Of a DNA stretch of 64,000 nucleotides, positions 27,553 to 40,940 are shown piece after piece; within the stretch, counting starts at the first letter, position 1, and each line of letters starts with the position of its first letter. Made by a program: the position numbers and the translations under genes. Under the pieces are notes generated by a model. That model ran no database searches. It saw nothing but the letters and a program-made list of their open reading frames with translations, and was not told the origin of the DNA. The DNA lies in the NCBI GenBank assembly GCA_030591565.1, contig JAUVAU010000003.1, forward strand, positions 4,879 through 68,878, read 5' to 3'. The DNA comes from Deltaproteobacteria bacterium. GTDB lineage: Bacteria > Desulfobacterota > Deferrisomatia > Deferrisomatales > BM512.

Positions 27553-27711
27553 ATGGGTACAAAAAGCTTTTTGGCCTTGATGGCAATCTCACTGGCTCTA
27601 ATGTTACTGCTGACAGCCTGTGGAGGTGGCAGTTCAAGCTCCTCCAGCACAACAACAGGCACGACGCTGGTGTGGGATTCGGGAACCTGGGACAATAACA
27701 CTTGGGAGTAA
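27553..27711 (+). CDS. small lipoprotein (52 aa)
   Basis: ATG 27553 with an AAGGAAGGA SD. Lipobox LLTACGGG followed by a Ser/Thr-rich linker. Confidence 0.5.
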   Translation: MGTKSFLALMAISLALMLLLTACGGGSSSSSSTTTGTTLVWDSGTWDNNTWE

Positions 27712-27715
27712 ACAA

Positions 27716-28849
27716 ATGAAAACAAAATTGATGCTTATATGCCTTATCACACTGATAACCGCCTCCATCAGCTTCGCGGGCCAGGTCGCCCCCCTTACCC
27801 AGATGGTCTCGGGTGGAACCGCCAGCGCAGCCGAGGTGAACGGGAACTTCACCGCCCTTGAGACAGAGGTAAACGACAATGACACGCGACTTGCAGACCA
27901 TGTTGTCGATACCGCCCTTCACTCCGACACCCTGGCAGACCTGAGCTGTGCGACAGACCAACTTATCCAATTCGACGGTACAAGCTGGACCTGCATCGAC
28001 AACCCCATCCCCCTCCTCCAGGCACAGGTTGACCTACAGGAAACCCGACTGGCGGATTTGGAGGCCCTGCTCACCCATTTCTCCCGCGTCGATAACGACG
28101 TGACCATAACCGGGGCCAACCTGCACGTGGTCAACGGCCTCGGCTCCACCGACACGGTGAACGGCTTTGGCAACCTGATCATCGGCTACGACGAGGCAAG
28201 GGATACAGGAAGCGACAAATCGGGCTCCCACAATCTGGTGGTGGGTATCGAACATAATTACTCCAGCTATGGTGGGCTGGTAGCAGGATATCGGAATGCT
28301 GTTTCAGGTTTCTACGCTTCAGTCAGCGGCGGAAATCAAAACACCGCCAGCGGCCATTATTCCTCCGTCAGCGGCGGTATTGTGAACGATGCCAGCGGCC
28401 ATTATTCCTCCGTTACTGGTGGTGCGGGTAACGACGCCACCAACCATTTTTCCTCCGTCAGCGGCGGAGATAACAACACCGCCAGCGGCCAGTATTCCTC
28501 CGTCAGCGGCGGAAACAGCAACACCGCCAGCGGCGATTATTCCTCCGTCAGCGGCGGATACGGCAACGATGCCATCGGTGAGTATTCCTCCGTCAGCGGC
28601 GGAAATATAAACGATGCCGAAGGCCTGTATTCCTCCGTCAGCGGCGGGAATTCAAATGACGCAATCGGTTGGGGTTCTTCCATTAGCGGCGGAACTGATA
28701 ACCAAGCCACCGGTCAGGAGTCATCCATTAATGGAGGAGATTCTAACATCGCCGGCGGGGTGGCGTCCTCCGTCAGCGGCGGAGACACCATAACGGCATC
28801 GGGAATGTATCACTGGGCGGCGGGACATTATTATTCACCCACCCCGTAG
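27716..28849 (+). CDS. secreted repeat protein (coiled-coil N-terminal region plus 11 x 15-aa YSSVSGGxxNxAxGx repeats)
   Basis: Signal peptide ...SISFAG. Heptad-like EVNGNFTALETEVNDNDTRLADH and LQETRLADLEALL. 11 tandem 15-residue repeats. Confidence 0.8.
   Translation: MKTKLMLICLITLITASISFAGQVAPLTQMVSGGTASAAEVNGNFTALETEVNDNDTRLADHVVDTALHSDTLADLSCATDQLIQFDGTSWTCIDNPIPLLQAQVDLQETRLADLEALLTHFSRVDNDVTITGANLHVVNGLGSTDTVNGFGNLIIGYDEARDTGSDKSGSHNLVVGIEHNYSSYGGLVAGYRNAVSGFYASVSGGNQNTASGHYSSVSGGIVNDASGHYSSVTGGAGNDATNHFSSVSGGDNNTASGQYSSVSGGNSNTASGDYSSVSGGYGNDAIGEYSSVSGGNINDAEGLYSSVSGGNSNDAIGWGSSISGGTDNQATGQESSINGGDSNIAGGVASSVSGGDTITASGMYHWAAGHYYSPTP
28313..28807 (+). repeat. coding tandem repeat, 11 x 45 nt
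   Basis: Units TAT TCC TCC GTC AGC GGC GG...AAC..GCC..GGC recur in phase from 28313 to 28807. Confidence 0.9.
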
Positions 28850-31775: not shown

Positions 31776-31891
31776 GAGTCCCTCTCTTCCAGGCGCGTTC
31801 GATCTTCGGATAGGCGGCTATTACAACTATGTGGATATTGGTCAGGTATACTTTAATAGTCCAGACGAGCACTAGAAAAAAGGGGAAACAA

Positions 31892-32485
31892 ATGGCGAAT
31901 TTAGCGGTTATCTACCACTCGCAGTTCGGACACACCAAACTCCAGGCCGAAGCGGTCGCCAGGGGGGCAACATCGGTCGATGGCATGGATGCCACCCTTT
32001 TTACCGCCGAAGAAGCGTCGGGCAAACTTGATGAGCTGGACGGCTACGACGCACTGATCTTCGGCACCGCCACCTACATGGGCAACATCTCGGCAGGGAT
32101 GAAGCAGTTCATGGAGGCCTCGGCGGCAAAATGGTTCACCCTGGCCTGGCGCGACAAGATCGCCGGGGCGTTCACCAACTCCAGCTCCTTTAGCGGCGAC
32201 AAGCTGAACACCCTGCAGGGCCTCGTGGTCTTCGCCATGCAGCACGGGATGATCTTCGTGGGGCTGGGCATGCTCCCCGCCCAAAGCGACATGGACTCGA
32301 TGAACCATATCGAAGGCCCCGGCCCCAACGTGACCAACCGTGCGGGTTCCTTTATCGGCCCGATGTCGGCGAGCTTTCAGGTCAACCCACCCGAGGCGCC
32401 CGCGCCGGGTGACATCGAAACCGCAGAGCTTTATGGACAGAGAGTGGCTGAGAAGACCCTGGTCTTCCTGGCGGGTAGGGGCTGA
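31892..32485 (+). CDS. flavodoxin-like NAD(P)H:quinone oxidoreductase (WrbA-like)
   Basis: LAVIYHSQFGHT...LIFGTATYMGN. Start at ATG 31892 with an AAGGGGA SD. Confidence 0.85.
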   Translation: MANLAVIYHSQFGHTKLQAEAVARGATSVDGMDATLFTAEEASGKLDELDGYDALIFGTATYMGNISAGMKQFMEASAAKWFTLAWRDKIAGAFTNSSSFSGDKLNTLQGLVVFAMQHGMIFVGLGMLPAQSDMDSMNHIEGPGPNVTNRAGSFIGPMSASFQVNPPEAPAPGDIETAELYGQRVAEKTLVFLAGRG

Positions 32486-33700
32486 TCAGCTCGGGGGTTC
32501 GTGTCGCCCGTCCACATTGTACAGCGCGCACATTACCGGGTCGGGCTTACAGGGGTCAGGGGCGCGAAAGCGGCACCCTCCCCCGCACTCCTCAGCTTCG
32601 GGGCACCGGTTGCACCCCTCCACCTCTTTCAGGACGACCGGTTTTCTCGCCTGCCAGCATGTTGCGAGCCCTTCACCTATTTTGCCCAGCGGCTTGTCGA
32701 AATAGAAGCCGCACTGGGCCACCGTACCATCAGCGCCCACGGTCGCTAGGTGTAGCCCGCAAGCCATCCCGTCGCTTCCGCCGTGGTAGGCCCCGCCAAA
32801 GCCGCGGGATATGGCAGCCGCCCCCTGCGCAGCGGTGACGCCCTCCACGGCAGAACCGCCTTCCAGTCTGCCGCTTGGACAGGGCACGTCGATGCTCCAC
32901 TCACGCGCATCCAGGCGGCGCACCAGCTCGCCCAGCTCTTCCAGCTCACCGAGGTTGCCGGGGTGGGCCATGGTCGCGATGGAGAGGTCCCGGCCCGACC
33001 CCGCCACCACCTCCGCAGCTTTTACCGCAGGACCGAAGGTCGCACCGCCCCGTAGGGCTTCGTGCCCCGCACGCATCCCATCGAGACTTATCTGAACCTC
33101 ATCCACCCCCAGCCCCCTGAGTGTCTTCCCGTCGAGCAGCAAACCGTTGGTCAGGAGAACCTTGCGAAAACTCCTGGCGGCCAGTATCTCGTTGATTTCC
33201 TCCCACCGTGGGTGGGTCAGCGGCTCACCACCGCTCACGAGCAGGCGCAGCCCGCCCAGCTGCTCAAACTCATCGCACACCCTCTCCACCTGGGCGGGGT
33301 CAAGGTCCACCGGTCTGGCTTTGCCAAGGTAGCAGTGGCTGCATTTGAGGTTACAGCGCCAGCTCACCTGCAACTCCAGGTAGCGCAGAGAGGGGAGGAG
33401 TACCAGCTCGTTTGGTCCAGGCCCCTTATGTAGGGGCTGTGGTTGGTCGTGGAGTTGGAGCAGCCCTTCTTCCAGGCAGTACTCCAGAAACTCCGCTTCA
33501 AGGTCCGCCTGGGCCACGGTCATATCGCCAAGGCAGCGCCCGAGTCCTTCCAGCGCTTCATCGTTCAGCTCGTAAAGCTCGTCACCAAGCGCGTCATAGA
33601 GGCAAGGCTCCTCCAGGCGGCGCAGCAGCGCCCTGTCGGCGAGACGTATGAATTTTTTGGAGGGGTCACGAGGGGCAGGAGGGTTGGGTGATTGATTCAT
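32486..33700 (-). CDS. radical SAM / SPASM-domain peptide-maturase-like enzyme with N-terminal PqqD/RRE-like domain
   Basis: CNLKCSHC (CX3CX2C). C-terminal CNRCPEAEECGGGC (CX2CX5CX3C SPASM motif) plus upstream auxiliary Cys. About 95 N-terminal residues (LYDALGDELYELNDEALEGL) resemble PqqD-type recognition elements. Confidence 0.9.
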   Translation of the reverse strand: MNQSPNPPAPRDPSKKFIRLADRALLRRLEEPCLYDALGDELYELNDEALEGLGRCLGDMTVAQADLEAEFLEYCLEEGLLQLHDQPQPLHKGPGPNELVLLPSLRYLELQVSWRCNLKCSHCYLGKARPVDLDPAQVERVCDEFEQLGGLRLLVSGGEPLTHPRWEEINEILAARSFRKVLLTNGLLLDGKTLRGLGVDEVQISLDGMRAGHEALRGGATFGPAVKAAEVVAGSGRDLSIATMAHPGNLGELEELGELVRRLDAREWSIDVPCPSGRLEGGSAVEGVTAAQGAAAISRGFGGAYHGGSDGMACGLHLATVGADGTVAQCGFYFDKPLGKIGEGLATCWQARKPVVLKEVEGCNRCPEAEECGGGCRFRAPDPCKPDPVMCALYNVDGRHEPPS

Positions 33701-33703
33701 CGG

Positions 33704-34036
33704 TTACCAGCGCCCGGTGCTGATGAGCCCCGCGATACCACAGAGCGCTCCGCAGGGTGCGCAATCATCGTTGGAGACCTCTGGATTTCTAAAATCGCAA
33801 TCCAGCGGGGGGTAGGAACACTTCTCACAAATTTCAACGAGGCGGGGGTCGTCGCCGTGGATTGCGTAGAGTGGATAAGCCGGGTTGAATTCCAGGGCGT
33901 ACAGCTCATCCCAGCCGGTCCTGGAGATATGTTCCAGCAGCGGGGCCAACGCGCCGCAGCCGGGGTCGTCGAACTTCTCAGCCTTGAAGTATCGGCAAAA
34001 CCTTCGACAGATATCTTTGCGAAACTGGGTATCCAC
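33704..34036 (-). CDS. hypothetical 110-aa protein with 9 Cys
   Basis: GAGGAGGG SD. Stop is 3 nt before the rSAM start. Cys motifs CRRFC, CEKC...C, CAPCGALC. No family recognised. Confidence 0.65.
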   Translation of the reverse strand: MDTQFRKDICRRFCRYFKAEKFDDPGCGALAPLLEHISRTGWDELYALEFNPAYPLYAIHGDDPRLVEICEKCSYPPLDCDFRNPEVSNDDCAPCGALCGIAGLISTGRW

Positions 34037-34067
34037 TCACTGCCCTCCTCGGAAACAGGACAAGGAA

Positions 34068-34097
34068 ATGGGGAGAACCTTTAGAGGCCCTCCCCAT
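34068..34097 (-). promoter_or_regulatory. intercistronic stem-loop between the peptide ORF and downstream genes
   Basis: 8-bp perfect stem ATGGGGAG/CTCCCCAT with a 14-nt loop, 15 nt after the peptide stop. Confidence 0.35.
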
Positions 34098-34111
34098 CGC
34101 CAACTTTTCGA

Positions 34112-34174
34112 CTAGCAGGAGCTAGCGCACTTGCACATGCCGCGTTTGGTACGGACAACTTTGCGAATCTTCAT
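34112..34174 (-). CDS. 20-aa Cys-rich peptide MKIRKVVRTKRGMCKCASSC (candidate RiPP precursor); absent from the ORF track
   Basis: ATG at 34174 lies 4 nt after AGGAGGG. Basic N-terminal half and a C-terminal CxCxxxC. First gene of the rSAM/SPASM cassette. Confidence 0.5.
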   Translation of the reverse strand: MKIRKVVRTKRGMCKCASSC

Positions 34175-34216
34175 GGTTCCCTCCTGGTGTCTGTCGGTTG
34201 GTAAAGCCACGGTTTT

Positions 34217-34244
34217 AGTATTCCACGTATTTTACCCGTGTCAA
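34217..34244 (-). promoter_or_regulatory. sigma70-like promoter candidate (TTGACA-16-AATACT with TGG extension)
   Basis: Minus strand reads TTGACAcgggtaaaatacgtggAATACT, about 45 nt upstream of the peptide ATG. Confidence 0.4.
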
Positions 34245-34253
34245 CAACTAGTA

Positions 34254-34519
34254 GCTTGTTGAAAAACCCCGGATATCCTCCGATTGACGTTGTCAGGGGC
34301 GAAAAATGATCCTCGAAATACCTATCAGTATGCCTGTGGTCATTTTTCTTCCCTTCCTAGTCCTCGAATGATCTTCGGGGCTTCCAGTTTATCGTCAGCT
34401 TAGCTGGAGGTTTGCCCAACATCAGCTAAAATCTCCAGTTTGGCCCGGTTTAGCCCTGTTTAGCCCTGTTTAGTGTTACCCCCTCCGCTTCGGGAGAGTT
34501 TTTCGTCAGAGCCTCCTAG
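34254..34519 (-). repeat. interspersed intergenic repeat, copy 3 (orientation B)
   Basis: Full-length copy with about 4 tandem GGTTTAGCCC-type units (34435-34475). Confidence 0.9.
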
Positions 34520-34555: not shown

Positions 34556-35794
34556 TCAAAAACTGTACTTCACGCGGGCGTAGACGTTGGTGTCATTCTC
34601 AAATTGCCCGAAGAAGGTATCCTCATCCCCGATGAACACATTGCCGCCCACGGTAAATTTGATATTGTCGCTCGCCTTGTAGGTAACCTTGGGACGCAGA
34701 TACACGTCCTCGTCGGTGGGAGAGATGAAGGCGAAGAGCGAGCAGATGAGGTTTTGCTGCATGAACATCGCCATATATCTTACCGTGACCCACACCCTGT
34801 CCTCGTCCCGGTCCAGCCCTCCACCATCTTCGGCAGTGGAATCCCAATCCATCACTCTCTCAAGGTAGAGCTGCACACCCAGGTTGTGGTTGGTTATCAG
34901 CTCATGGCTGTAACCCGCCAGCACCCTCGCCTCGGAGTTGACCACATAGGGGTTGTCGCCGTCGGGGTCATCCATACTGCGGTAGTAGGAGGTCTCGAAG
35001 TTAGCCACTCCGCCCAGGATCGAGCCGCGAAGGCTTGCGCCGCCGGAGGCCAGCCGGGGGAAGTAGAGCCGGGAGGTCGCCGCGTCCATACCGAGGGGTT
35101 GTCCGTAGCGTCCCCTGTAGCCGTAGAGCGCCCACTCCCAACCACCGATGTCGGAATAAACCCGCGCCGATATCTCGGAGTTGCCGAGGGTATGGTCCGG
35201 CTCGTCGGGGCTAATCGGAGTGGTTGAATCCATTGGCCCAACCGTGCCCATCCCGCCCCAGTAGGAGAGCCGCTCGCCGGAGATATAGCCATCTGAATCG
35301 AAGATCGGCACCCAGGCCATATCCACGCTCACCACATCGCCAAACCAGGTTCCCCGCACCGCGTTGGAGGGCTTTTTCAGGTACTCATCATCGCGGCCTA
35401 TGAAGAAGCTCTGCCAGTCCTTGGGGAAGAGATCGTTCAGGAAGACCAGATCGCCGGTGCCCCAGGTCAACACCTGCCTGCCGATCTTCAGGTCCACGCT
35501 GTCGAGCGGAGTAGCAAGGATGTTGGCCTCCCTTATGTCCAGCTCGGAGTCGCCCTCCACTCCGTCGAAGAGGAAATCGCCGCGAAACTGCATCGTGCCC
35601 ACATCCGCTTCATGCATCAGGTCGAGCTGAAACCGCGACTCCCCCATGAGGAAGTCATCTTCGGCGTGATCGTCCTCCACGACGCGAGAAGCCGCCCCCA
35701 CCTCAAGAAAGCCGCTAATGGACAGCTCCTCGGCCAGCGCCTGGTGTGAAAAAACCAGCAGCAGCGCCAGTGAACTAAAGAGTATTCGTCTCAT
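34556..35794 (-). CDS. putative outer-membrane beta-barrel protein (third gene of the RND/LolA-like operon)
   Basis: Signal peptide ...SHQALA. Alternating beta-strand pattern. C-terminal ...YARVKYSF (terminal Phe). Confidence 0.7.
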   Translation of the reverse strand: MRRILFSSLALLLVFSHQALAEELSISGFLEVGAASRVVEDDHAEDDFLMGESRFQLDLMHEADVGTMQFRGDFLFDGVEGDSELDIREANILATPLDSVDLKIGRQVLTWGTGDLVFLNDLFPKDWQSFFIGRDDEYLKKPSNAVRGTWFGDVVSVDMAWVPIFDSDGYISGERLSYWGGMGTVGPMDSTTPISPDEPDHTLGNSEISARVYSDIGGWEWALYGYRGRYGQPLGMDAATSRLYFPRLASGGASLRGSILGGVANFETSYYRSMDDPDGDNPYVVNSEARVLAGYSHELITNHNLGVQLYLERVMDWDSTAEDGGGLDRDEDRVWVTVRYMAMFMQQNLICSLFAFISPTDEDVYLRPKVTYKASDNIKFTVGGNVFIGDEDTFFGQFENDTNVYARVKYSF

Positions 35795-35860
35795 CAAATT
35801 TGCTCCCGTTACCATTACTCGGTATTTGGCCCAAGTAATTATTGAAATCACTACCTGCGG

Positions 35861-36097
35861 CTGTTGAAAAACTCTCCCGAAGCGGGAGGGGTAACGCTAA
35901 ACAGGGCTAAACCGGAGATGTTAGCCGATGTTGGGCAAACCTCCAACTAAGCTGAAGATAAACTGGAAACCCCGAAGATACTTCGAGGGCTAGGAAGGGA
36001 AGAAAAATGACCGCAGGCATACCTATAAGTATTTCGAGGATCATTTTTCGCCCCCCGACAACGTCAATCGGAGGATATCCGGGGTTTTTCAACAAGC
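35861..36097 (+). repeat. interspersed intergenic repeat, copy 4 (orientation A)
   Basis: Begins CTGTTGAAAAACTCTCCCGAAGCGGGAGG and ends GGATATCCGGGGTTTTTCAACAAGC. Lies between two co-directional minus-strand operon genes. Confidence 0.9.
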
Positions 36098-36102
36098 TAC
36101 CA

Positions 36103-36900
36103 CTATCGGCGGATATATTTACGCGGAGGCTTTCGTAAATAGCGCTCGGTAAAGATCGACTCGTCCAGCCCCACGTCATATTTAACACCGGAGAAATTCA
36201 TCACCGTCGCCCCCCCGCTGGGGATATCCTTGACCCGCGCTTTGGTAACCGTGGGGATACCGCCCACCTCTTCAACTTCAAGCGCCTCGACCACCCGGTA
36301 CAGCTCTCCCTGCTTGTCAAGATACTCCGCCTTCATCGGCAGGTAGGTCTGCTTGTCGACCCACATCTTGTAGGAGGAGAACTCCACCGAACCGGGGTCC
36401 TTGGGGGTATTGGAGATAACGTAGCTATCCTCCGTGGTCTCCTCAAGCACGTGCTCATCCTCGGTGAGGTTGCGCCCGGATACATCTTCGTAGAAGAAAT
36501 GGGAACCCACGAAGCTGGTGCGCTTGTCCGACGCCGCGATCCTCTTCACCAGATCGAGCGCAGGCAGATAGAGCCAGCGGTCGTCGTCGCCATCCACCTT
36601 TTTGTGGACCAGGAAAACGGTCTTCTTAACGTCGCCGGGTTTGTGGAAGTAGATGTAGAAGAGCTGGTCGCCCCCGTCGGTCTTGTCTTTGCGAAGGATC
36701 GTGAACTCGCGGCTGCGCTCGCTGCCGGAAGCCGACGTCATCACCATCTTGACCCGCGCCTTGCCGTCGTCGCCGCCATAGTAGGAGGCGTTATTGGCCT
36801 TTCCCACGATGGTGTTCACGTCGTCGGCAGCCAACACGCCACCAGCCGCCATTACCACCAGGGCGCAAGCCGTCATCATATAAATCAGCTGTTTTTTCAT
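36103..36900 (-). CDS. outer-membrane lipoprotein-sorting (LolA-like) family protein
   Basis: Signal peptide. ...DRWLYLPALDLVKRIAASDKRTSFVGSHFFYEDV... typical of the LolA-like proteins encoded next to MMPL/RND exporters. Its start overlaps the RND gene stop (TGATG). Confidence 0.8.
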   Translation of the reverse strand: MKKQLIYMMTACALVVMAAGGVLAADDVNTIVGKANNASYYGGDDGKARVKMVMTSASGSERSREFTILRKDKTDGGDQLFYIYFHKPGDVKKTVFLVHKKVDGDDDRWLYLPALDLVKRIAASDKRTSFVGSHFFYEDVSGRNLTEDEHVLEETTEDSYVISNTPKDPGSVEFSSYKMWVDKQTYLPMKAEYLDKQGELYRVVEALEVEEVGGIPTVTKARVKDIPSGGATVMNFSGVKYDVGLDESIFTERYLRKPPRKYIRR

Positions 36901-39572
36901 CACGCTTCTCCTTTTATTTCGCACGCAACACCATCCTTATCGACCGTCTTTTTAAAGAGCAGCCCGGCCATTATGCGGATGAGTGAAGGAAGTATTATAA
37001 GGGTTCCGATTCCGGAAATGCCCATTATCAGCGCCAGGAAGAGCCCCACAGTGCGGTAGGGGACCAGGGTGGAGAGCAGCAGCGGCAAGAAGCCCACGGC
37101 GATAACTACCGCGTTGCGGGCAATCGCTCTTGCTGGCGCTTCCGCCATCTCCAGCGCCGCGCGGGGCCAGGAGTTGTGCTCGCTGGTCAGCTCACGCGCC
37201 CGCTGGATGTAGTGGATGGCAAAATCGATCGACATCCCCAAGGTCAAGCTGGAGAGGATCGCCACCGGCATATCGTAGTCCTTGCCCACCATCCCTATCA
37301 GTCCATAGATGAATGCGATCGTCACCGACAGCGGGATCATGCTCAGCACGCCCCACAGAAGCGAGCGAAAGAGCACCGACATCAGGATGAGCACGATGAA
37401 GAAGCTGCCCAGCAGACTCTCAAGCATCCCGGTCACCATCTTATCCTGCCACACCACGTTGAGGTAGGTCAGCCCCGCCCAGGCGTAGGTCAGCCCTGCG
37501 GGGGGCGGGTTTTGCACGACGAAGGCGTCCACCTTGGAGACGACCTCTTCCATGTCCGTGTTGTCGCCCGATTTCAGCTGGACCCAGATGTTGAGCTTGC
37601 GGTAATCGGGCGTAACCAGATGCCACACGTCGTCGGGGTCGTGGCTGGACTGGAAGGAGAGGATCGACTGGGCCACCGCCGCCGGGGTATCGGGTATGCG
37701 GTAGGCTTCCGGCTTGCCCTCGTATAGCTCCATGTGTACTTTTTTGACCATGTCGGCCAGCGAGTTGGATTTGCCCACCAGCTCCATCGACCCCATGTAG
37801 GCCTGGAGCTTCTCCACGTAGGCAAGAACCTCGGGCGACTTGAAGAGATGCAACCCGAGGCGAAAATCCTCAACCTCGTCGGAGAGCAGGTCCAGCTCGT
37901 CGAGGAGATCGTAGTCCTCCTGATCCACCTTGTCGGTCAGCTCTTCGAGCCGTGACTGCAATGTGGAGAAGACCTTTTCGTGTTCACCCCACACACGGGC
38001 CTCCACACCGGCTGCCGCCATATCGTTAAGTTCGCCCAGGAGGATCGTCGCGGCAGTGGCGACCGCCGGAGACCCCTCATGTTTGGACTTGGTTTCAAGA
38101 TAGAGGGCCAAGGGCTTGAGCTCACCCTCCGCAGCGTTAGCACTACCACCCTCTTCACTACCTGGCCCCAGCACGAGATATGCGCCGTAGGTGCCGCCAA
38201 AGTGGCTGTTCAGCACCCTGTCGGCAACGCGGATCGGGTGTTCGGTGTTGAACCATTTGACCGGGTTGTCGTTGATTTTTATCTTGGTTATCCCAAAAGC
38301 CGACACTGCAATGACCGCGACCGTAATGATGATCAGCACCTTGGCGTAACCCTGGGTGAGGCCACCAGACCACCTGACCAGCCGCGCCAACGGCGTGCCG
38401 CCTGCGCGTCCGCACTCGTCCTGGGCGCTCGCGCCGAAGTTCTCCAGCTTCTTCTCGGGTATGAAGAGCATGATATATGCCGGGACCAGCATGATGGTGA
38501 GCAACCAGGCCAGCCCGACCCCAAACGCCACGAAGAGGCCAAAGACCTGCACGGGCGGAATGGGCGTGAGCGCGAGGCTGGCGAAACCGGCCATCGTCGT
38601 CACCGAGGTATAGAGCATGGGCATGAAGAGCTCGTCCATCACGGCTCGAAGGGTTTTTGCTCTGTCCCGGTAGGTCTGGTAGTGGTCAAAGAAAACCGAG
38701 AGGATGTGCACCGAGTCCACCACCGCTATGGGCATGAGGAAGATCGGTATCATGGAGCTCATTATGTGGACGGTGAACCCCAGGGAGATCAGCGTGCCCA
38801 TCGTCATCGCGACGGTGAGCATCGCCACCATCATGGGTGAGATGACGAGGATGAACGATTTGAAGAAGAAGAGCATCAGCAGGAATATCAAGAGCCCCGC
38901 AAGCGGTGCGGAGATGCCCATCTGCTGGAACATCTCGACGCCAAAGGTGTCTTCGGCCACCGGCAACCCGGTTATGTGGTACTGCTCCTCGCCGGAGACT
39001 TCCGCATCAATCAGTTTCTGGATATCGCCGCTGACCCTGTGGGCGATCTCTTTATGCTCGATGGGGACGTATATGGCCAGCGCGCGACCGTCTTCGCTAA
39101 CAAGCGTCCCGTTGAACATGGGGTTCGCCAGGATGCGCGAGCGTATATGCTCCGCCTCCTCATTTGTCTCCGGGGGGGCCTCCATCAGGTACTTGAAGCG
39201 CACCGTGCCGGGACCCGCCTGCAGTATGTCATCCACAGTGGAGGGCGCCATAAGGTCGCGCACCACCACGCCTTCAACTTTTTTCAAACCCTCGGTGATG
39301 CGATAGACCTTCCCCAACGTCGCGGGGTTGAAGACACCATTGGGGTCCTCCTCGTTGATGACGCCGAGGATTATCATGTCAGAGAGCTCGAAGCTCTCCT
39401 TCACCTCGTTATGGAAGACACGCACCTGCTCATCTTCGCCGAGCATATTCTCCGGGTCGGTGTCGACGCGGATGTTGCCCACCCTCAGCAAGGTCAGCAC
39501 GGTGAGCGCCAACGCCAGCATGATTACCACTTTCGGGTGGCGGATGGAAAAATCGATAAGGAAACGTCCCAT
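36900..39572 (-). CDS. RND-superfamily (MMPL/HpnN-like) exporter
   Basis: About 890 aa with two 6-TM bundles and two large periplasmic loops. N-terminus MGRFLIDFSIRHPK...DTDPENML. Start at ATG 39572 with an AAGGGGA SD. Confidence 0.85.
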   Translation of the reverse strand: MGRFLIDFSIRHPKVVIMLALALTVLTLLRVGNIRVDTDPENMLGEDEQVRVFHNEVKESFELSDMIILGVINEEDPNGVFNPATLGKVYRITEGLKKVEGVVVRDLMAPSTVDDILQAGPGTVRFKYLMEAPPETNEEAEHIRSRILANPMFNGTLVSEDGRALAIYVPIEHKEIAHRVSGDIQKLIDAEVSGEEQYHITGLPVAEDTFGVEMFQQMGISAPLAGLLIFLLMLFFFKSFILVISPMMVAMLTVAMTMGTLISLGFTVHIMSSMIPIFLMPIAVVDSVHILSVFFDHYQTYRDRAKTLRAVMDELFMPMLYTSVTTMAGFASLALTPIPPVQVFGLFVAFGVGLAWLLTIMLVPAYIMLFIPEKKLENFGASAQDECGRAGGTPLARLVRWSGGLTQGYAKVLIIITVAVIAVSAFGITKIKINDNPVKWFNTEHPIRVADRVLNSHFGGTYGAYLVLGPGSEEGGSANAAEGELKPLALYLETKSKHEGSPAVATAATILLGELNDMAAAGVEARVWGEHEKVFSTLQSRLEELTDKVDQEDYDLLDELDLLSDEVEDFRLGLHLFKSPEVLAYVEKLQAYMGSMELVGKSNSLADMVKKVHMELYEGKPEAYRIPDTPAAVAQSILSFQSSHDPDDVWHLVTPDYRKLNIWVQLKSGDNTDMEEVVSKVDAFVVQNPPPAGLTYAWAGLTYLNVVWQDKMVTGMLESLLGSFFIVLILMSVLFRSLLWGVLSMIPLSVTIAFIYGLIGMVGKDYDMPVAILSSLTLGMSIDFAIHYIQRARELTSEHNSWPRAALEMAEAPARAIARNAVVIAVGFLPLLLSTLVPYRTVGLFLALIMGISGIGTLIILPSLIRIMAGLLFKKTVDKDGVACEIKGEA

Positions 39573-39887
39573 TTTACTCCCCTTCAAATTTTTGTGATTA
39601 ACCAGATACTTCACTTTGATGTGGGGGGAAGGAAAAAGTCACATCCCTAAACAATCGTCAAAACAATTGTACTAAACATGGATTCTACACCAAAACAGGT
39701 ATTTCCAGCGGCAAACCGTTTTTCAACCCACATCGGCAATTCTACTCGCCCTTACGCTCAGCCACCACCGCTGCTAAGCGTCTTCTTAATATTTACGTGG
39801 GGCGGGTTTGCCGTTGCACCCCTTGGTGGTGAACGATTAGGATGATTAGCCCGTCAACATTGATCCAAACGGAGTACCCTGTACCGG

Positions 39888-40940
39888 ATGACGCACCAGG
39901 AGACCGACACAGCTTTTCAACAGCGGATGCTTCAGCACGTCTCGCGCACCTTCGCGTTGACCATTCCACTGCTGCCCCCCGACATTGCGGCAGCCGTGGG
40001 CAACGCCTACCTGGTGTGCCGGATCGCCGACACGATTGAGGATGACCCCTCCATGGCGCTGGGGAAAAAGCAGGAGCTTTTTTCAAGGCTGGTCCAATCC
40101 GTCGAGGGGGAGCTGGACCCGGAGCTCTTCGCAGCCCAAGCCGCACCGCTGCTCTCCACCAATATCCCCAAAGCTGAAAAAGAGTTGATGGAAAAGAGCG
40201 CGCGCGTCCTGAGGGTCACCCACGAGCTTCAACCGGTGCGACGCGGGGCGATATCAAAATGCGTGGCGCTGATGGCCGAGGGGATGGAGACGTTCCAAAA
40301 CACCCAGAGTTTGAGGGGGCTGCGCGACCAGCCCGAGATGGACCGCTACTGCTACTACGTGGCCGGGGTGGTGGGTGAGATGCTGACCGAGATCTTTTGC
40401 GATCACGACCCCCGCATCGCCGCCCATGGGGAGCAGCTCATACCCCTTGGCCGCTCCTTTGGACAAGGGCTGCAGATGACCAACATCCTTAAAGATGTGT
40501 GGGATGACAGGAGACGGGGCGCATGCTGGCTGCCCCGCTCGGCGTTCAGGGGGATGGAGGATTGCACCGACCTCGTGGCCCAGGCGCGGCAGGAGGAGGT
40601 GTTCGTTGAGGGGATGGCCGGGCTGACCGACCTTTGCGCGGCCCACCTGGATAACGCTTTCAAGTACATCACCATGATCCCCCCGGATCAGGGCGGGATA
40701 CGCAAATTCTGTTTACTGGCGCTCGGCCTTGCGCTGCTTACCCTGCGAAAGCTCTCGGGCCCTGCGCACTTCATCCCCGGCGTAAAATCCAAGATCGGAC
40801 GCACGTCGGTGATGATGACCCTCTCCGGGGTAAAGCTGCTGGCGGGAAACGACTTTGCCCTTCGCCAGGCGCACCGCGTCCTCATCGCGCCTTTTGCTAA
40901 GAGGCTCCCCAAGGTAGAGGTAGAGATATTCACCCCTTGA
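39888..40940 (+). CDS. squalene/phytoene synthase family protein
   Basis: SRTFALTIPLLP, YLVCRIADTIED (Asp-rich box 1), YCYYVAGVVGEM, GLQMTNILKDVWDD (box 2 region). Confidence 0.85.
   Translation: MTHQETDTAFQQRMLQHVSRTFALTIPLLPPDIAAAVGNAYLVCRIADTIEDDPSMALGKKQELFSRLVQSVEGELDPELFAAQAAPLLSTNIPKAEKELMEKSARVLRVTHELQPVRRGAISKCVALMAEGMETFQNTQSLRGLRDQPEMDRYCYYVAGVVGEMLTEIFCDHDPRIAAHGEQLIPLGRSFGQGLQMTNILKDVWDDRRRGACWLPRSAFRGMEDCTDLVAQARQEEVFVEGMAGLTDLCAAHLDNAFKYITMIPPDQGGIRKFCLLALGLALLTLRKLSGPAHFIPGVKSKIGRTSVMMTLSGVKLLAGNDFALRQAHRVLIAPFAKRLPKVEVEIFTP

What the first reader, a model, noticed from the sequence alone, without database searches (positions are those of the whole stretch)
32486..34244. Compact RiPP-like cassette: unannotated 20-aa Cys-rich peptide, 9-Cys protein, RRE-radical SAM-SPASM enzyme
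Seen in sequence (minus strand):
- A 63-nt ORF (34174 to 34112) encodes MKIRKVVRTKRGMCKCASSC. It sits 4 nt after AGGAGGG and about 45 nt after a TTGACA-16-AATACT promoter candidate. It is too short for the ORF track.
- An 8-bp stem-loop follows it.
- Next is a 110-aa protein with 9 Cys (SD GAGGAGGG).
- Three nt later starts a 404-aa enzyme with CX3CX2C (CNLKCSHC), a canonical CX2CX5CX3C SPASM end, and an N-terminal ~95 aa that looks PqqD/RRE-like.

Established knowledge: RRE-rSAM-SPASM enzymes install thioether or other crosslinks on Cys-containing ribosomal peptides (sactipeptides, ranthipeptides/SCIFF).

Inference: this is a peptide-maturation system whose substrate is the 20-mer (basic 12-aa leader, core MCKCASSC), the 110-aa Cys-rich protein, or both. 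A precursor this short combined with an extra Cys-rich partner is not a layout I recognise.
Basis: partly seen in the sequence, partly recalled or inferred. Interest (0 to 1): 0.85.

Follow-up and report, generated by a model that had tools for sequence, protein, structure and literature searches.

The report
Conserved 20-residue peptide with radical-SAM maturase
This is a real, unannotated gene for a 20-residue cysteine-rich peptide, sitting with a radical-SAM enzyme and a new seven-cysteine helper protein; the set recurs in hundreds of mostly anaerobe-lineage genomes and matches no curated family.

Summary

- **The peptide gene is real.** The 63-nt ORF (MKIRKVVRTKRGMCKCASSC) recurs next to homologous radical-SAM (rSAM) genes in 57 of 65 related loci with enough flank. 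It is 20 codons in all but one (21). All 63 listed copies have a purine-rich, mostly GGAGG-type, ribosome-binding site. I3, C14, K15, C16 and C20 are invariant through synonymous codon changes only.
- **Its position moved, the link held.** It lies upstream of the enzyme in one clade and just downstream in another.
- **A hairpin usually follows it.** A terminator-like hairpin follows the stop codon in about 80% of copies.
- **The 110-aa protein is a partner, not a substrate.** It belongs to an unnamed family with seven invariant Cys. In many genomes it is fused to the enzyme's N-terminus.
- **The enzyme is a peptide maturase by fold.** It has CX3CX2C and a 7-Cys SPASM motif. Its predicted fold matches SkfB, SuiB, CteB and PqqE. 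No NCBIfam model comes near its cut-off.

Most likely this is a new three-part peptide-maturation system whose product stays in the cell. The chemistry is unknown: thioether crosslinks are the leading guess, and a peptide-derived cofactor or metal ligand is the more novel alternative.

The parts
34269..34283 (-). Terminator-like hairpin plus T-run. It closes the upstream transcription unit (the 431-aa gene at 34556..35851).
   Evidence: Consensus scan. This is a pattern match only.
34217..34244 (-). Sigma-70-like promoter candidate, TTGACA-16-AATACT, with a TG extended -10.
   Evidence: 10 of 12 matches. The region has 2 sites against 0.6 expected in shuffles.
34179..34185 (-). Shine-Dalgarno AGGAGGG, 4 nt before the peptide ATG.
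   Evidence: A purine-rich, mostly GGAGG-type site precedes all 63 homologous peptide genes listed.
34112..34174 (-). Precursor peptide gene, 20 aa: MKIRKVVRTKRGMCKCASSC. Basic leader M1-M13; core C14-K-C-A-S-S-C20 at the C-terminus.
   Evidence: It is conserved in 57 of 65 well-flanked loci. I3, C14, K15, C16 and C20 are invariant, with only synonymous codon differences at those positions.
34064..34101 (-). Hairpin (14-bp core at 34067..34098) followed by a U-rich tract, between the peptide gene and the partner gene. Probably a leaky terminator or transcript stabiliser.
   Evidence: -34.6 kcal/mol, z = -2.96. Equivalent hairpins with unrelated stem sequences follow about 79% of 63 homologous peptide genes.
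34043..34050 (-). Shine-Dalgarno GAGGAGGG for the 110-aa gene, 6 nt before its GTG.
33704..34036 (-). 110-aa Cys-rich partner protein. It has 9 Cys, 7 of them invariant in the family: C10, C14, C27, C70, C73, C80 and C95. D81, P94 and G96 are also invariant.
   Evidence: It is fused to the N-terminus of the rSAM in proteins of about 500 aa. No Pfam, NCBIfam or PDB relative was found.
32486..33700 (-). 404-aa radical SAM/SPASM enzyme with an N-terminal peptide-binding-like domain.
33416..33664 (-). N-terminal winged-helix (RRE-like) domain of the enzyme, residues about 13-95.
   Evidence: AF2 model, pLDDT about 94 over this region, with a beta-strands-then-helices layout. Full-length Foldseek alignments to SuiB and CteB. 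The only PDB sequence hit is PqqD at E = 1.5. Pfam PqqD does not match.
33332..33355 (-). CX3CX2C radical-SAM cluster motif (C116, C120, C123).
   Evidence: Invariant in 66 of 66 homologues.
32528..32761 (-). SPASM domain with seven invariant Cys (C314, C330, C363, C366, C372, C376, C391).
   Evidence: The Pfam SPASM model matches only 7 of 66 family members, but the motif is canonical.

Best explanation
This is a self-contained, three-gene peptide-maturation operon on the minus strand.

- Transcription (inferred): a promoter drives the 20-aa precursor gene. A leaky terminator hairpin after that gene probably keeps peptide transcripts in excess of the two enzyme genes.
- Recognition (inferred): the N-terminal winged-helix domain of the rSAM enzyme binds the basic, conserved leader (M-K-I-K/R-K-V/I-x-K/R).
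- Chemistry (inferred): the rSAM core abstracts a hydrogen atom from the invariant C-terminal core C-K-C-x-x-S-C. The 7-Cys SPASM domain supplies two auxiliary Fe-S clusters. One of them probably has an open site for a substrate thiolate, as in CteB. The most likely outcome is one or more intramolecular sulfur-to-carbon (thioether) crosslinks, from Cys to Lys15 and/or Ser19.
- Partner protein (inferred): the 110-aa protein is a dedicated module of the enzyme, not a substrate. Its seven invariant Cys suggest that it binds metal or Fe-S and acts as electron donor, sulfur or metal donor, or substrate chaperone.
- Fate of the product (inferred): no protease or exporter is consistently linked to the system and the core hardly varies across phyla. 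The product therefore most likely acts inside the cell, like SCIFF, PQQ or mycofactocin, and is not a secreted bacteriocin.

Shown here: the gene is real, it is coupled to the rSAM, the partner is fused to the enzyme in many genomes, and the enzyme has the fold of a peptide maturase. Not shown: the binding, the chemistry, and the role of the partner.
For: - Gene reality: a 20-aa ORF with consensus M[KT]I[KR]K[VI]x[KR]xxxxxCKC[K/A]xSC* occurs in 61 of the 80 related loci, plus two variants. That is 57 of 65 loci with adequate flanks. It is always on the rSAM strand.
- Purifying selection: positions 3, 14, 15, 16 and 20 show 600-936 synonymous and 0 nonsynonymous codon-pair differences.
- Rearrangement kept the link: 32 loci have the peptide gene upstream and 25 have it immediately downstream of the rSAM.
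- Hairpins: hairpins with unrelated stem sequences follow the stop codon, with a median z of -3.9.
- Partner as enzyme module: proteins of about 500 aa are Cys-rich domain + RRE + rSAM + SPASM. The family has 252 clusters at 50% identity, with 7 invariant Cys.
- Enzyme class: the AF2 model has pLDDT 92.6. The best Foldseek hits are SkfB, SuiB, CteB, anSME and PqqE. The best PDB sequence hits are PqqE and SkfB. It has 3 + 7 invariant Cys.
- Not a curated family.
- No consistently linked protease or exporter: ORF clustering.
- Established knowledge that rSAM-SPASM enzymes make thioether RiPPs, including the conserved SCIFF peptides: PMC10114670.
Against: - No experiment or expression data exist for this system.
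- The RRE is not detected by Pfam. Its only PDB sequence hit, to PqqD, is not significant (E = 1.5).
- The partner protein modelled poorly (pLDDT 62) and has no detectable relatives, so its role is a guess.
- Eight of 65 well-flanked loci lack the peptide gene within 4 kb.
- About half of the well-flanked loci show no seven-Cys partner within 4 kb. At least three loci, including two deltaproteobacterial MAGs of the ATP-grasp group, carry a reduced form that retains only three of the conserved Cys.
- The core is only 7 residues, which leaves few acceptor residues for classical sacti- or ranthipeptide topologies.
- Extreme conservation of the core fits a cofactor or metal ligand as well as it fits a crosslinked peptide.
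Confidence: 0.72

Rival explanations
1. The peptide is the precursor of a small sulfur-rich cofactor or metal-binding prosthetic group, and is not a crosslinked peptide end product. This would parallel PqqA to PQQ and MftA to mycofactocin. The rSAM would do the first committed step on the invariant C-terminal CKCxxSC. Clade-specific accessory enzymes would finish the product.
For: - The core and the 20-codon length are almost invariant across Desulfarculaceae, Desulfobacterales, Syntrophaceae, Nitrospirota, Chloroflexi and Actinomycetota. That is unlike fast-evolving bacteriocin cores.
- The core is at the very C-terminus, as in MftA.
- The best NCBIfam and PDB sequence matches include the mycofactocin maturase and PqqE.
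- Accessory genes in relatives point to metal, sulfur or redox chemistry. They include a cupin with a His-rich tail that is fused to the Cys-rich domain in P0317, a DsrE-like protein, rubrerythrin and a flavodiiron protein, and a FecCD/BtuF-type ABC importer directly upstream in Desulfoferula.
Against: - No peptidase is consistently linked to release a small molecule.
- None of the accessory genes is universal, and none lies in the window.
- The NCBIfam similarity to PqqE and MftC is generic: about 60 bits over the rSAM core only.
Confidence: 0.2
2. The 110-aa Cys-rich protein is the substrate, or a second substrate, of the rSAM. This would parallel the Cys-rich QhpC subunit that QhpD crosslinks.
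For: It is Cys-rich (9 Cys), sits next to the enzyme, and is translationally coupled to it with a 3-nt gap.
Against: - It is fused N-terminally to the enzyme in at least 12 loci and in several database proteins. That would limit such a substrate to one turnover.
- Its seven Cys and the D-F / P-C-G-G motifs are invariant at 20-30% overall identity. That pattern is typical of a metal site.
- In Nitrospirota it lies on the opposite strand, or is absent, while peptide and rSAM stay adjacent.
- The enzyme already has a dedicated peptide partner.
Confidence: 0.05
3. The 63-nt ORF is a regulatory leader peptide. Ribosome stalling at its Cys codons would control the following hairpin and so the expression of the downstream genes. 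It would not be a substrate.
For: The ORF has three Cys codons in its last seven, and a terminator-like hairpin follows it, upstream of the enzyme genes.
Against: - In 25 of 57 loci the ORF lies downstream of the rSAM and still carries its hairpin.
- The basic N-terminal residues I3, K5, V/I6 and K/R8 are conserved at the protein level. An attenuator would not require that.
- Tandem duplicate copies exist in L007 and L011.
Confidence: 0.03
4. The rSAM is a non-peptide enzyme, for example a NirJ/AhbD-like tetrapyrrole enzyme. The small ORF would be an unrelated small metal-binding protein, a mini-metallothionein, that merely travels with it.
For: The top NCBIfam hits by score are NirJ, NirJ2 and AhbD. 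CKCK-type motifs resemble metallothionein motifs (my own knowledge).
Against: - Those scores are about 63 bits against cut-offs of 500 bits or more.
- The enzyme has an N-terminal winged-helix domain and aligns over its full length with the peptide maturases SuiB and CteB.
- Adjacency to the peptide gene survived a change of gene order.
- No tetrapyrrole genes are linked.
Confidence: 0.04

Closest known systems
SCIFF / ranthipeptide systems (CteB, Tte1186 and their six-Cys-in-45 peptides)
   Same: - An RRE-rSAM-SPASM enzyme sits next to a short, Cys-rich peptide that is strongly conserved across a large anaerobic clade.
- No linked protease or exporter, and the physiological role is unknown.
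- The SPASM domain has 7 Cys.
- Foldseek matches CteB (5why).
- Thioether chemistry for this class is described in PMC10114670.
   Different: - No SCIFF maturase model appeared among the NCBIfam matches listed; the sactipeptide maturase models StsB and AlbA scored 46-48 bits against cut-offs of 625-850.
- The peptide is 20 aa with 3 Cys and a CKCxxSC C-terminus, and it lacks the Asp/Asn/Thr acceptor pattern of ranthipeptides.
- The taxa differ: Desulfobacterota, Nitrospirota and Chloroflexi rather than Clostridia.
- There is an extra seven-Cys partner protein or domain.
PQQ pathway (PqqA / PqqD / PqqE)
   Same: - A very short, highly conserved precursor.
- A hairpin after the precursor gene.
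- A PqqD-type recognition element plus an rSAM-SPASM enzyme.
- PqqE is the best PDB sequence hit (6c8v, E = 9.5e-10). PqqD is the only PDB sequence hit of the N-terminal domain.
   Different: - The PqqE model scores 58.6 bits against a cut-off of 381.
- The peptide has no Glu/Tyr pair.
- No pqqB, pqqC or pqqF genes are present.
- The RRE is fused to the enzyme rather than separate.
Mycofactocin (MftA / MftB / MftC)
   Same: - A short precursor whose reactive residues are at the very C-terminus.
- An rSAM-SPASM maturase, whose model is among the best NCBIfam hits (63 bits).
- An intracellular product.
   Different: - The cut-off is 265 bits and is not met.
- The C-terminus is S-C, not V-Y.
- No MftD or MftE homologues are linked.
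Streptide-type RaS-RiPPs (SuiA / SuiB)
   Same: - A short precursor, with hydrogen abstraction from a Lys side chain in the known system.
- The best full-length structural alignment: 5v1t and 5v1q, TM 0.60-0.65 over 437-458 columns.
   Different: Sequence identity is 14-16%. The peptide has no Trp. The known system is regulated by quorum sensing in streptococci, and this one occurs in quite different lineages.
Quinohemoprotein amine dehydrogenase maturation (QhpC / QhpD)
   Same: An rSAM-SPASM enzyme sits next to a small Cys-rich protein of about 100 aa.
   Different: Here the Cys-rich protein is fused to the enzyme in many genomes and looks like a metal-binding module. No dehydrogenase subunits are linked. 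A separate 20-aa peptide is the conserved partner.

Membership tests
Radical SAM / SPASM peptide maturases (general class) | CX3CX2C motif for the SAM-binding [4Fe-4S] cluster | tested here: met
   C116/C120/C123 are invariant in 66 of 66 homologues. Pfam Radical_SAM matches at E = 5e-17.
Radical SAM / SPASM peptide maturases (general class) | C-terminal SPASM motif CX9-15GX4C ... CX2CX5CX3C ... C | tested here: met
   C314-x15-C330 (GTVAQC), C363-x2-C366-x5-C372-x3-C376 and C391 are all invariant. The Pfam SPASM HMM matches only 7 of 66 members, so the sequence is divergent.
Radical SAM / SPASM peptide maturases (general class) | RiPP recognition element (PqqD-like winged helix) | tested here: inconclusive
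   - For: the AF2 model shows a confident beta-strands-then-helices domain at residues 17-84, and there are full-length Foldseek alignments to SuiB and CteB.
- Against: Pfam PqqD matches only 1 of 66 members at E = 0.14, and PqqD 5sxy is the sole PDB sequence hit, at E = 1.5.
Radical SAM / SPASM peptide maturases (general class) | Co-located precursor peptide gene | tested here: met
   The 20-aa gene is adjacent in 57 of 65 well-flanked loci, in two different gene orders.
Radical SAM / SPASM peptide maturases (general class) | Demonstrated modification of the peptide | not testable with these tools
   This needs co-expression and mass spectrometry.
Sactipeptide / ranthipeptide (SCIFF) maturases | Score above the curated cut-off of a family model (AlbA, StsB and similar) | tested here: not met
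   AlbA scores 46 bits against 850. StsB scores 48 against 625. No family member comes near a cut-off.
Sactipeptide / ranthipeptide (SCIFF) maturases | Cys donors in the core peptide, and thioether bonds in the product | tested here: inconclusive
   Three invariant Cys are present. The bonds themselves cannot be tested here.
PQQ biosynthesis (PqqE / PqqA) | PqqE equivalog score, and a Glu-X3-Tyr core in the peptide | tested here: not met
   58.6 bits against a cut-off of 381. The peptide has no Glu or Tyr.
Mycofactocin (MftC / MftA) | MftC equivalog score, and a C-terminal Val-Tyr | tested here: not met
   63 bits against a cut-off of 265. The peptide ends in Ser-Cys.
NirJ / AhbD tetrapyrrole radical SAM enzymes | Equivalog score, and linked heme d1 or alternative heme pathway genes | tested here: not met
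   About 63 bits against cut-offs of 500-515. The neighbours are a flavodoxin-like protein, a thioesterase, a histidine kinase, an MMPL protein and a LolA-like protein.
Anaerobic sulfatase maturase | Cognate sulfatase with a C/S-x-P/A-x-R motif nearby | tested here: not met
   No sulfatase lies among the neighbours. anSME is only a fold-level match.

The most novel reading that the evidence does not exclude
The operon makes a peptide-derived, sulfur-rich redox cofactor or metal ligand used inside the cell by these lineages (sulfate reducers, syntrophs, Thermodesulfovibrionales and others). It would be a third example of the PQQ/mycofactocin logic. Its new feature would be a dedicated seven-Cys Fe-S partner that donates electrons, sulfur or a metal to the invariant C-terminal CKCxxSC.
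Probability: 0.2. Interest if true: 0.88.

Novelty: new variant of a known kind. Interest (0 to 1): 0.68.

Why it matters
- **A missing gene.** The tested exact sequences of this 20-codon gene are absent from a collection of 15 billion predicted proteins, and no 20-aa gene is called at its position in any of the five public loci inspected (L081, L083-L086). Yet it is one of the most strongly conserved small ORFs one could ask for, present in hundreds of species-level genomes across several phyla.
- **A candidate for new chemistry.** Together with an rSAM family that has no curated model, and a seven-Cys protein family with no name, fold or relatives, it defines a system that has not been characterised.
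- **Two possible outcomes.** If the product is a crosslinked peptide, it adds a minimal scaffold and a new accessory component to rSAM RiPP enzymology. If it is a cofactor or metal ligand, it would bear on the redox or metal physiology of sulfate reducers, syntrophs and Nitrospirota.
- **A practical use.** The peptide consensus and the partner-domain alignment can be turned directly into annotation models.

Tried and rejected
- A word-indexed homology search with the 110-aa protein alone found only itself. A profile built from locus-derived sequences was needed.
- The AF2 model of the 110-aa protein was poor (pLDDT 62). Its Foldseek search gave only noise, with Mcl-1 at E > 2.
- A profile-profile comparison of the Cys-rich family with the rSAM/SPASM family gave 0.9% probability. 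My HMM had weakly hit SPASM regions, so I had considered a 'SPASM-like' origin. That idea is not supported beyond a shared CxxCx5C motif.
- A PDB profile search with the Cys-rich family found nothing significant. NCBIfam found nothing either.
- Pfam did not detect a PqqD domain.
- Five full-text literature searches found no description of this system. They used the peptide motifs CKCKSSC, CKCKASC, GLCKCK and TCKCK, and combinations of SPASM, RiPP and the carrier taxa.
- The cupin gene found after the rSAM in relatives is not in the window (tblastn). No second peptide copy is in the window either.
- Rfam found no known RNA in the window.
- A relaxed search for peptide variants in the 8 well-flanked loci that lack one found none.
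- The leader-peptide/attenuator idea and the idea that the 110-aa protein is the substrate were rejected. The reasons are given under the rival explanations.
Full report
**1. Observation**

All features lie on the minus strand.
- The 63-nt ORF at 34174..34112 encodes MKIRKVVRTKRGMCKCASSC. AGGAGGG lies 4 nt upstream.
- A promoter-like TTGACA-16-AATACT sits at 34244..34217, with 10 of 12 matches and a TG before the -10. It comes directly after a terminator-like site at 34283..34269 that closes the upstream gene.
It has 14 pairs, -34.6 kcal/mol and z = -2.96 against shuffles, and is followed by a U-rich tract.
- The 110-aa ORF (34036..33704, GTG start, GAGGAGGG 6 nt upstream) has 9 Cys.
- Three nt later the 404-aa ORF begins (33700..32486). 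It carries CNLKCSHC and CNRCPEAEECGGGC.

**2. Is the small ORF a gene?**

- The rSAM has about 1,600 database homologues at 45-64% identity.
I fetched 80 of them. They come from Desulfarculaceae (including Desulfocarbo indianensis), Desulfobacterales, Syntrophaceae, Desulfomonile, Nitrospirota/Thermodesulfovibrionales, Nitrospinota, Chloroflexi and Actinomycetota.
- A pattern scan found a 20-codon ORF, M[KT]I[KR]K[VI]x[KR]xxxxxCKC[K/A]xSC*, in 61 of the 80 related loci, plus two variants. It is always on the rSAM strand and, in all 63 copies listed, preceded by a purine-rich, mostly GGAGG-type, ribosome-binding site.
- Of the 65 loci with at least 900 nt upstream and 400 nt downstream, 57 carry it.
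- Among 62 distinct DNA sequences, I3, C14, K15, C16 and C20 are invariant. S19 and K5 are each conserved in 62 of 63 copies. At the invariant positions there are 600-936 synonymous codon-pair differences and no nonsynonymous ones. All three stop codons are used.

This is purifying selection on a protein. The ORF is a real gene.

**3. Coupling to the enzyme**

- The gene order differs between clades. In 32 loci, as in the window, the peptide gene precedes the Cys-rich gene and the rSAM. In 25 loci (Nitrospirota, Syntrophaceae, Chloroflexi) it lies immediately downstream of the rSAM. Adjacency that survives a rearrangement is strong evidence for a functional link.
- Two loci (L007, L011) have tandem duplicate peptide genes.
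- A GC-rich hairpin, usually followed by a T-run, follows the stop codon in about 79% of the 63 copies. The stems have unrelated sequences and the median z is -3.9. This is the arrangement often seen after RiPP precursor genes and after pqqA (my own knowledge). It would give excess precursor transcript.

**4. The 110-aa protein**

- A single-sequence search found only itself.
- A profile built from the loci found 344 proteins. An exhaustive HMMER scan of 1.84 billion representative proteins found 252 clusters at 50% identity. Wherever a source gives a name it is 'hypothetical', and none has a Pfam domain.
- C10, C14, C27, C70, C73, C80, D81, P94, C95 and G96 are invariant at about 20-30% overall identity.
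- Homologues of about 500 aa (P0047, P0091, P0100, P0105, P0114, P0120, and at least 12 loci) are fusions of this domain to the N-terminus of the RRE-rSAM-SPASM enzyme.
- In some Nitrospirota the gene is on the opposite strand. About half of the well-flanked loci show no seven-Cys partner within 4 kb. At least three loci (two deltaproteobacterial MAGs of the ATP-grasp group and an Actinomycetota MAG) carry a reduced form that retains only three of the conserved Cys.
- One protein (P0317) fuses the domain to the cupin described in section 6.
- These facts point to an accessory, probably metal- or Fe-S-binding, module of the enzyme, not a substrate.
- Its structure prediction was poor (pLDDT 62). 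No fold, PDB, NCBIfam or profile-profile relative was found.

**5. The enzyme**

- Pfam sees only Radical_SAM.
- The best NCBIfam scores are about 63 bits (NirJ, MftC, AhbD, PqqE, ScmE, WgkB and others) against cut-offs of 265-850 bits. None of 66 family members comes near any cut-off. The family has no curated model in the June 2026 release.
- The invariant Cys are 116/120/123 plus seven in the SPASM region. This is the 7-Cys arrangement. In CteB that arrangement leaves an open iron site on auxiliary cluster I for a substrate thiolate (my own knowledge of the CteB structure).
- The AF2 model is confident (pLDDT 92.6). Its best PDB matches are the peptide maturases SkfB, SuiB (437-458 aligned columns, TM 0.60-0.65) and CteB, followed by anSME and PqqE.
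- Residues 17-84 form a confident strands-then-helices domain. At the sequence level Pfam PqqD fails. A profile of this domain retrieves only PqqD from the PDB, at a non-significant E = 1.5. The RRE is therefore supported by predicted fold but not by sequence.

**6. Wider context**

- In the window the operon stands alone.
  - Downstream on the opposite strand lies a flavodoxin-like gene (31829..32485). Its stop codon abuts the rSAM stop codon.
  - Upstream on the same strand lie a 431-aa protein of unknown function, a LolA-like protein and an MMPL transporter. They are separated from the operon by a terminator-like site and the promoter.
- ORF clustering across the 81 loci found no universally linked protease or exporter.
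- Several accessory genes are clade-specific, and none is in the window.
  - A distant cupin with a His-rich tail sits directly after the rSAM in about 17 loci.
  - A DsrE-like protein occurs in a MAG labelled Desulfarculus baarsii.
  - A DUF192 protein and an upstream FecCD/BtuF-type ABC importer occur in Desulfoferula.
  - An ATP-grasp ligase follows the peptide gene in nine loci labelled Syntrophaceae or Deltaproteobacteria.
  - Rubrerythrin, a flavodiiron protein and a second rSAM-SPASM enzyme occur in Nitrospirota.
- Together these hint at metal, sulfur or redox chemistry. Each could also reflect synteny inherited within one clade.

**7. Mechanism**

- Best supported:
  - The winged-helix domain binds the conserved basic leader.
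  - The rSAM abstracts a hydrogen atom in the invariant CKCxxSC tail.
  - The SPASM clusters, and probably the seven-Cys partner, complete an oxidative crosslink. S-C thioethers to Lys15 or Ser19 are the most likely outcome.
  - The product stays in the cell.
- What is shown: the gene is real, it is coupled to the rSAM, the partner is fused to the enzyme in many genomes, and the enzyme belongs to the peptide-maturase class by fold.
- What is inferred: binding, chemistry and the role of the partner.
- The main alternative is a peptide-derived cofactor or metal ligand on the PQQ/mycofactocin pattern. It fits the extreme conservation and the strictly C-terminal core equally well.
- Three other readings are disfavoured (see the rival explanations): the 110-aa protein as substrate, a Cys-sensing attenuator, and an unrelated small-molecule rSAM.

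**8. Comparison with known systems, and novelty**

- The system works like SCIFF/ranthipeptide, streptide, PQQ and mycofactocin systems. It fails every curated membership test that could be run here.
- Its distinctive features are a fixed 20-residue precursor with a CKCxxSC C-terminus and a seven-Cys partner domain with no detectable relatives.
- Five full-text literature searches, including the peptide motifs themselves, found no description of it.
- Ten exact peptide sequences are absent from a collection of 15 billion proteins. That collection may under-represent products of this length. No 20-aa gene is called at the peptide's position in the five public loci inspected, including the complete Desulfoferula mesophila genome.
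- General background on rSAM-SPASM RiPP enzymes comes from PMC10114670.
- Verdict: a real and widespread system that has not been characterised. It is a new variant of the rSAM-RiPP kind.

Noticed in passing
window 34438..34473: A tandem array of 3.6 copies of a 10-nt unit (GTTTAGCCCT on the + strand, AGGGCTAAAC as read on the operon strand). It lies about 200 nt upstream of the operon's promoter candidate and could be a regulator-binding site.
   Followed up: partly
window 31829..32485 (+): A convergent flavodoxin/FMN-reductase-like gene of 218 aa. Its stop codon abuts the rSAM stop codon within the palindrome TGATCA, with no spacer or terminator between them. It is a possible reductant for the rSAM, but the link is not conserved in other loci.
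   Followed up: partly
window 34556..39614 (-) and 39888..40940 (+): Upstream on the same strand lie a 431-aa protein with no Pfam match, a LolA-like protein and a 904-aa MMPL/RND-type transporter. A divergent squalene/phytoene synthase gene follows. This looks like a lipid (hopanoid-like?) export locus unrelated to the peptide operon.
   Followed up: no
L002, L004-L008, L010, L013, L018, L021, L035, L040, L074, L075, L079, L081, L084 (directly after the rSAM): A fourth gene of about 115 aa. It is a distant Cupin_2 relative with invariant THACY and GHEE motifs and a His-rich C-terminal tail. In P0317 it is fused to the Cys-rich domain. It is absent from the window.
   Followed up: partly
L084 6188..6529: In a MAG labelled Desulfarculus baarsii, a DsrE-like (sulfur-relay family) gene overlaps the rSAM stop codon by 4 nt and precedes the cupin gene.
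   Followed up: no
L025, L037, L038, L047, L063, L064, L066, L069, L080 (after the peptide gene): An ATP-grasp ligase of about 305 aa lies immediately downstream of the peptide gene in loci labelled Syntrophaceae or Deltaproteobacteria. It could be a clade-specific tailoring enzyme. In L038 and L069 of this group, and in the Actinomycetota locus L067, the Cys-rich partner is reduced to a form that retains only three of the conserved Cys.
   Followed up: partly
L026, L032, L044, L048, L053, L061, L062: Nitrospirota loci place one or two rubrerythrin genes, a flavodiiron protein and a second rSAM-SPASM gene of about 330 aa next to the system. These are oxidative-stress genes typical of anaerobes.
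   Followed up: partly
L081 2204..7654: In Desulfoferula mesophila a BtuF/CbiZ-FecCD-ABC importer lies directly upstream on the same strand, and a DUF192 gene sits between the peptide and the Cys-rich gene. ABC ATPase genes also lie upstream in L004, L007, L009, L011 and L013.
   Followed up: no
P0243 (474 aa): The Cys-rich domain appears at the C-terminus of a response-regulator/PAS/histidine-kinase-like protein. It may be a true fusion or a gene-call read-through.
   Followed up: no
window 27620..28849 (+): A 409-aa ORF has a weak, sub-threshold match to the 'grass antifreeze beta roll' Pfam family (25 bits against a cut-off of 30).
   Followed up: no
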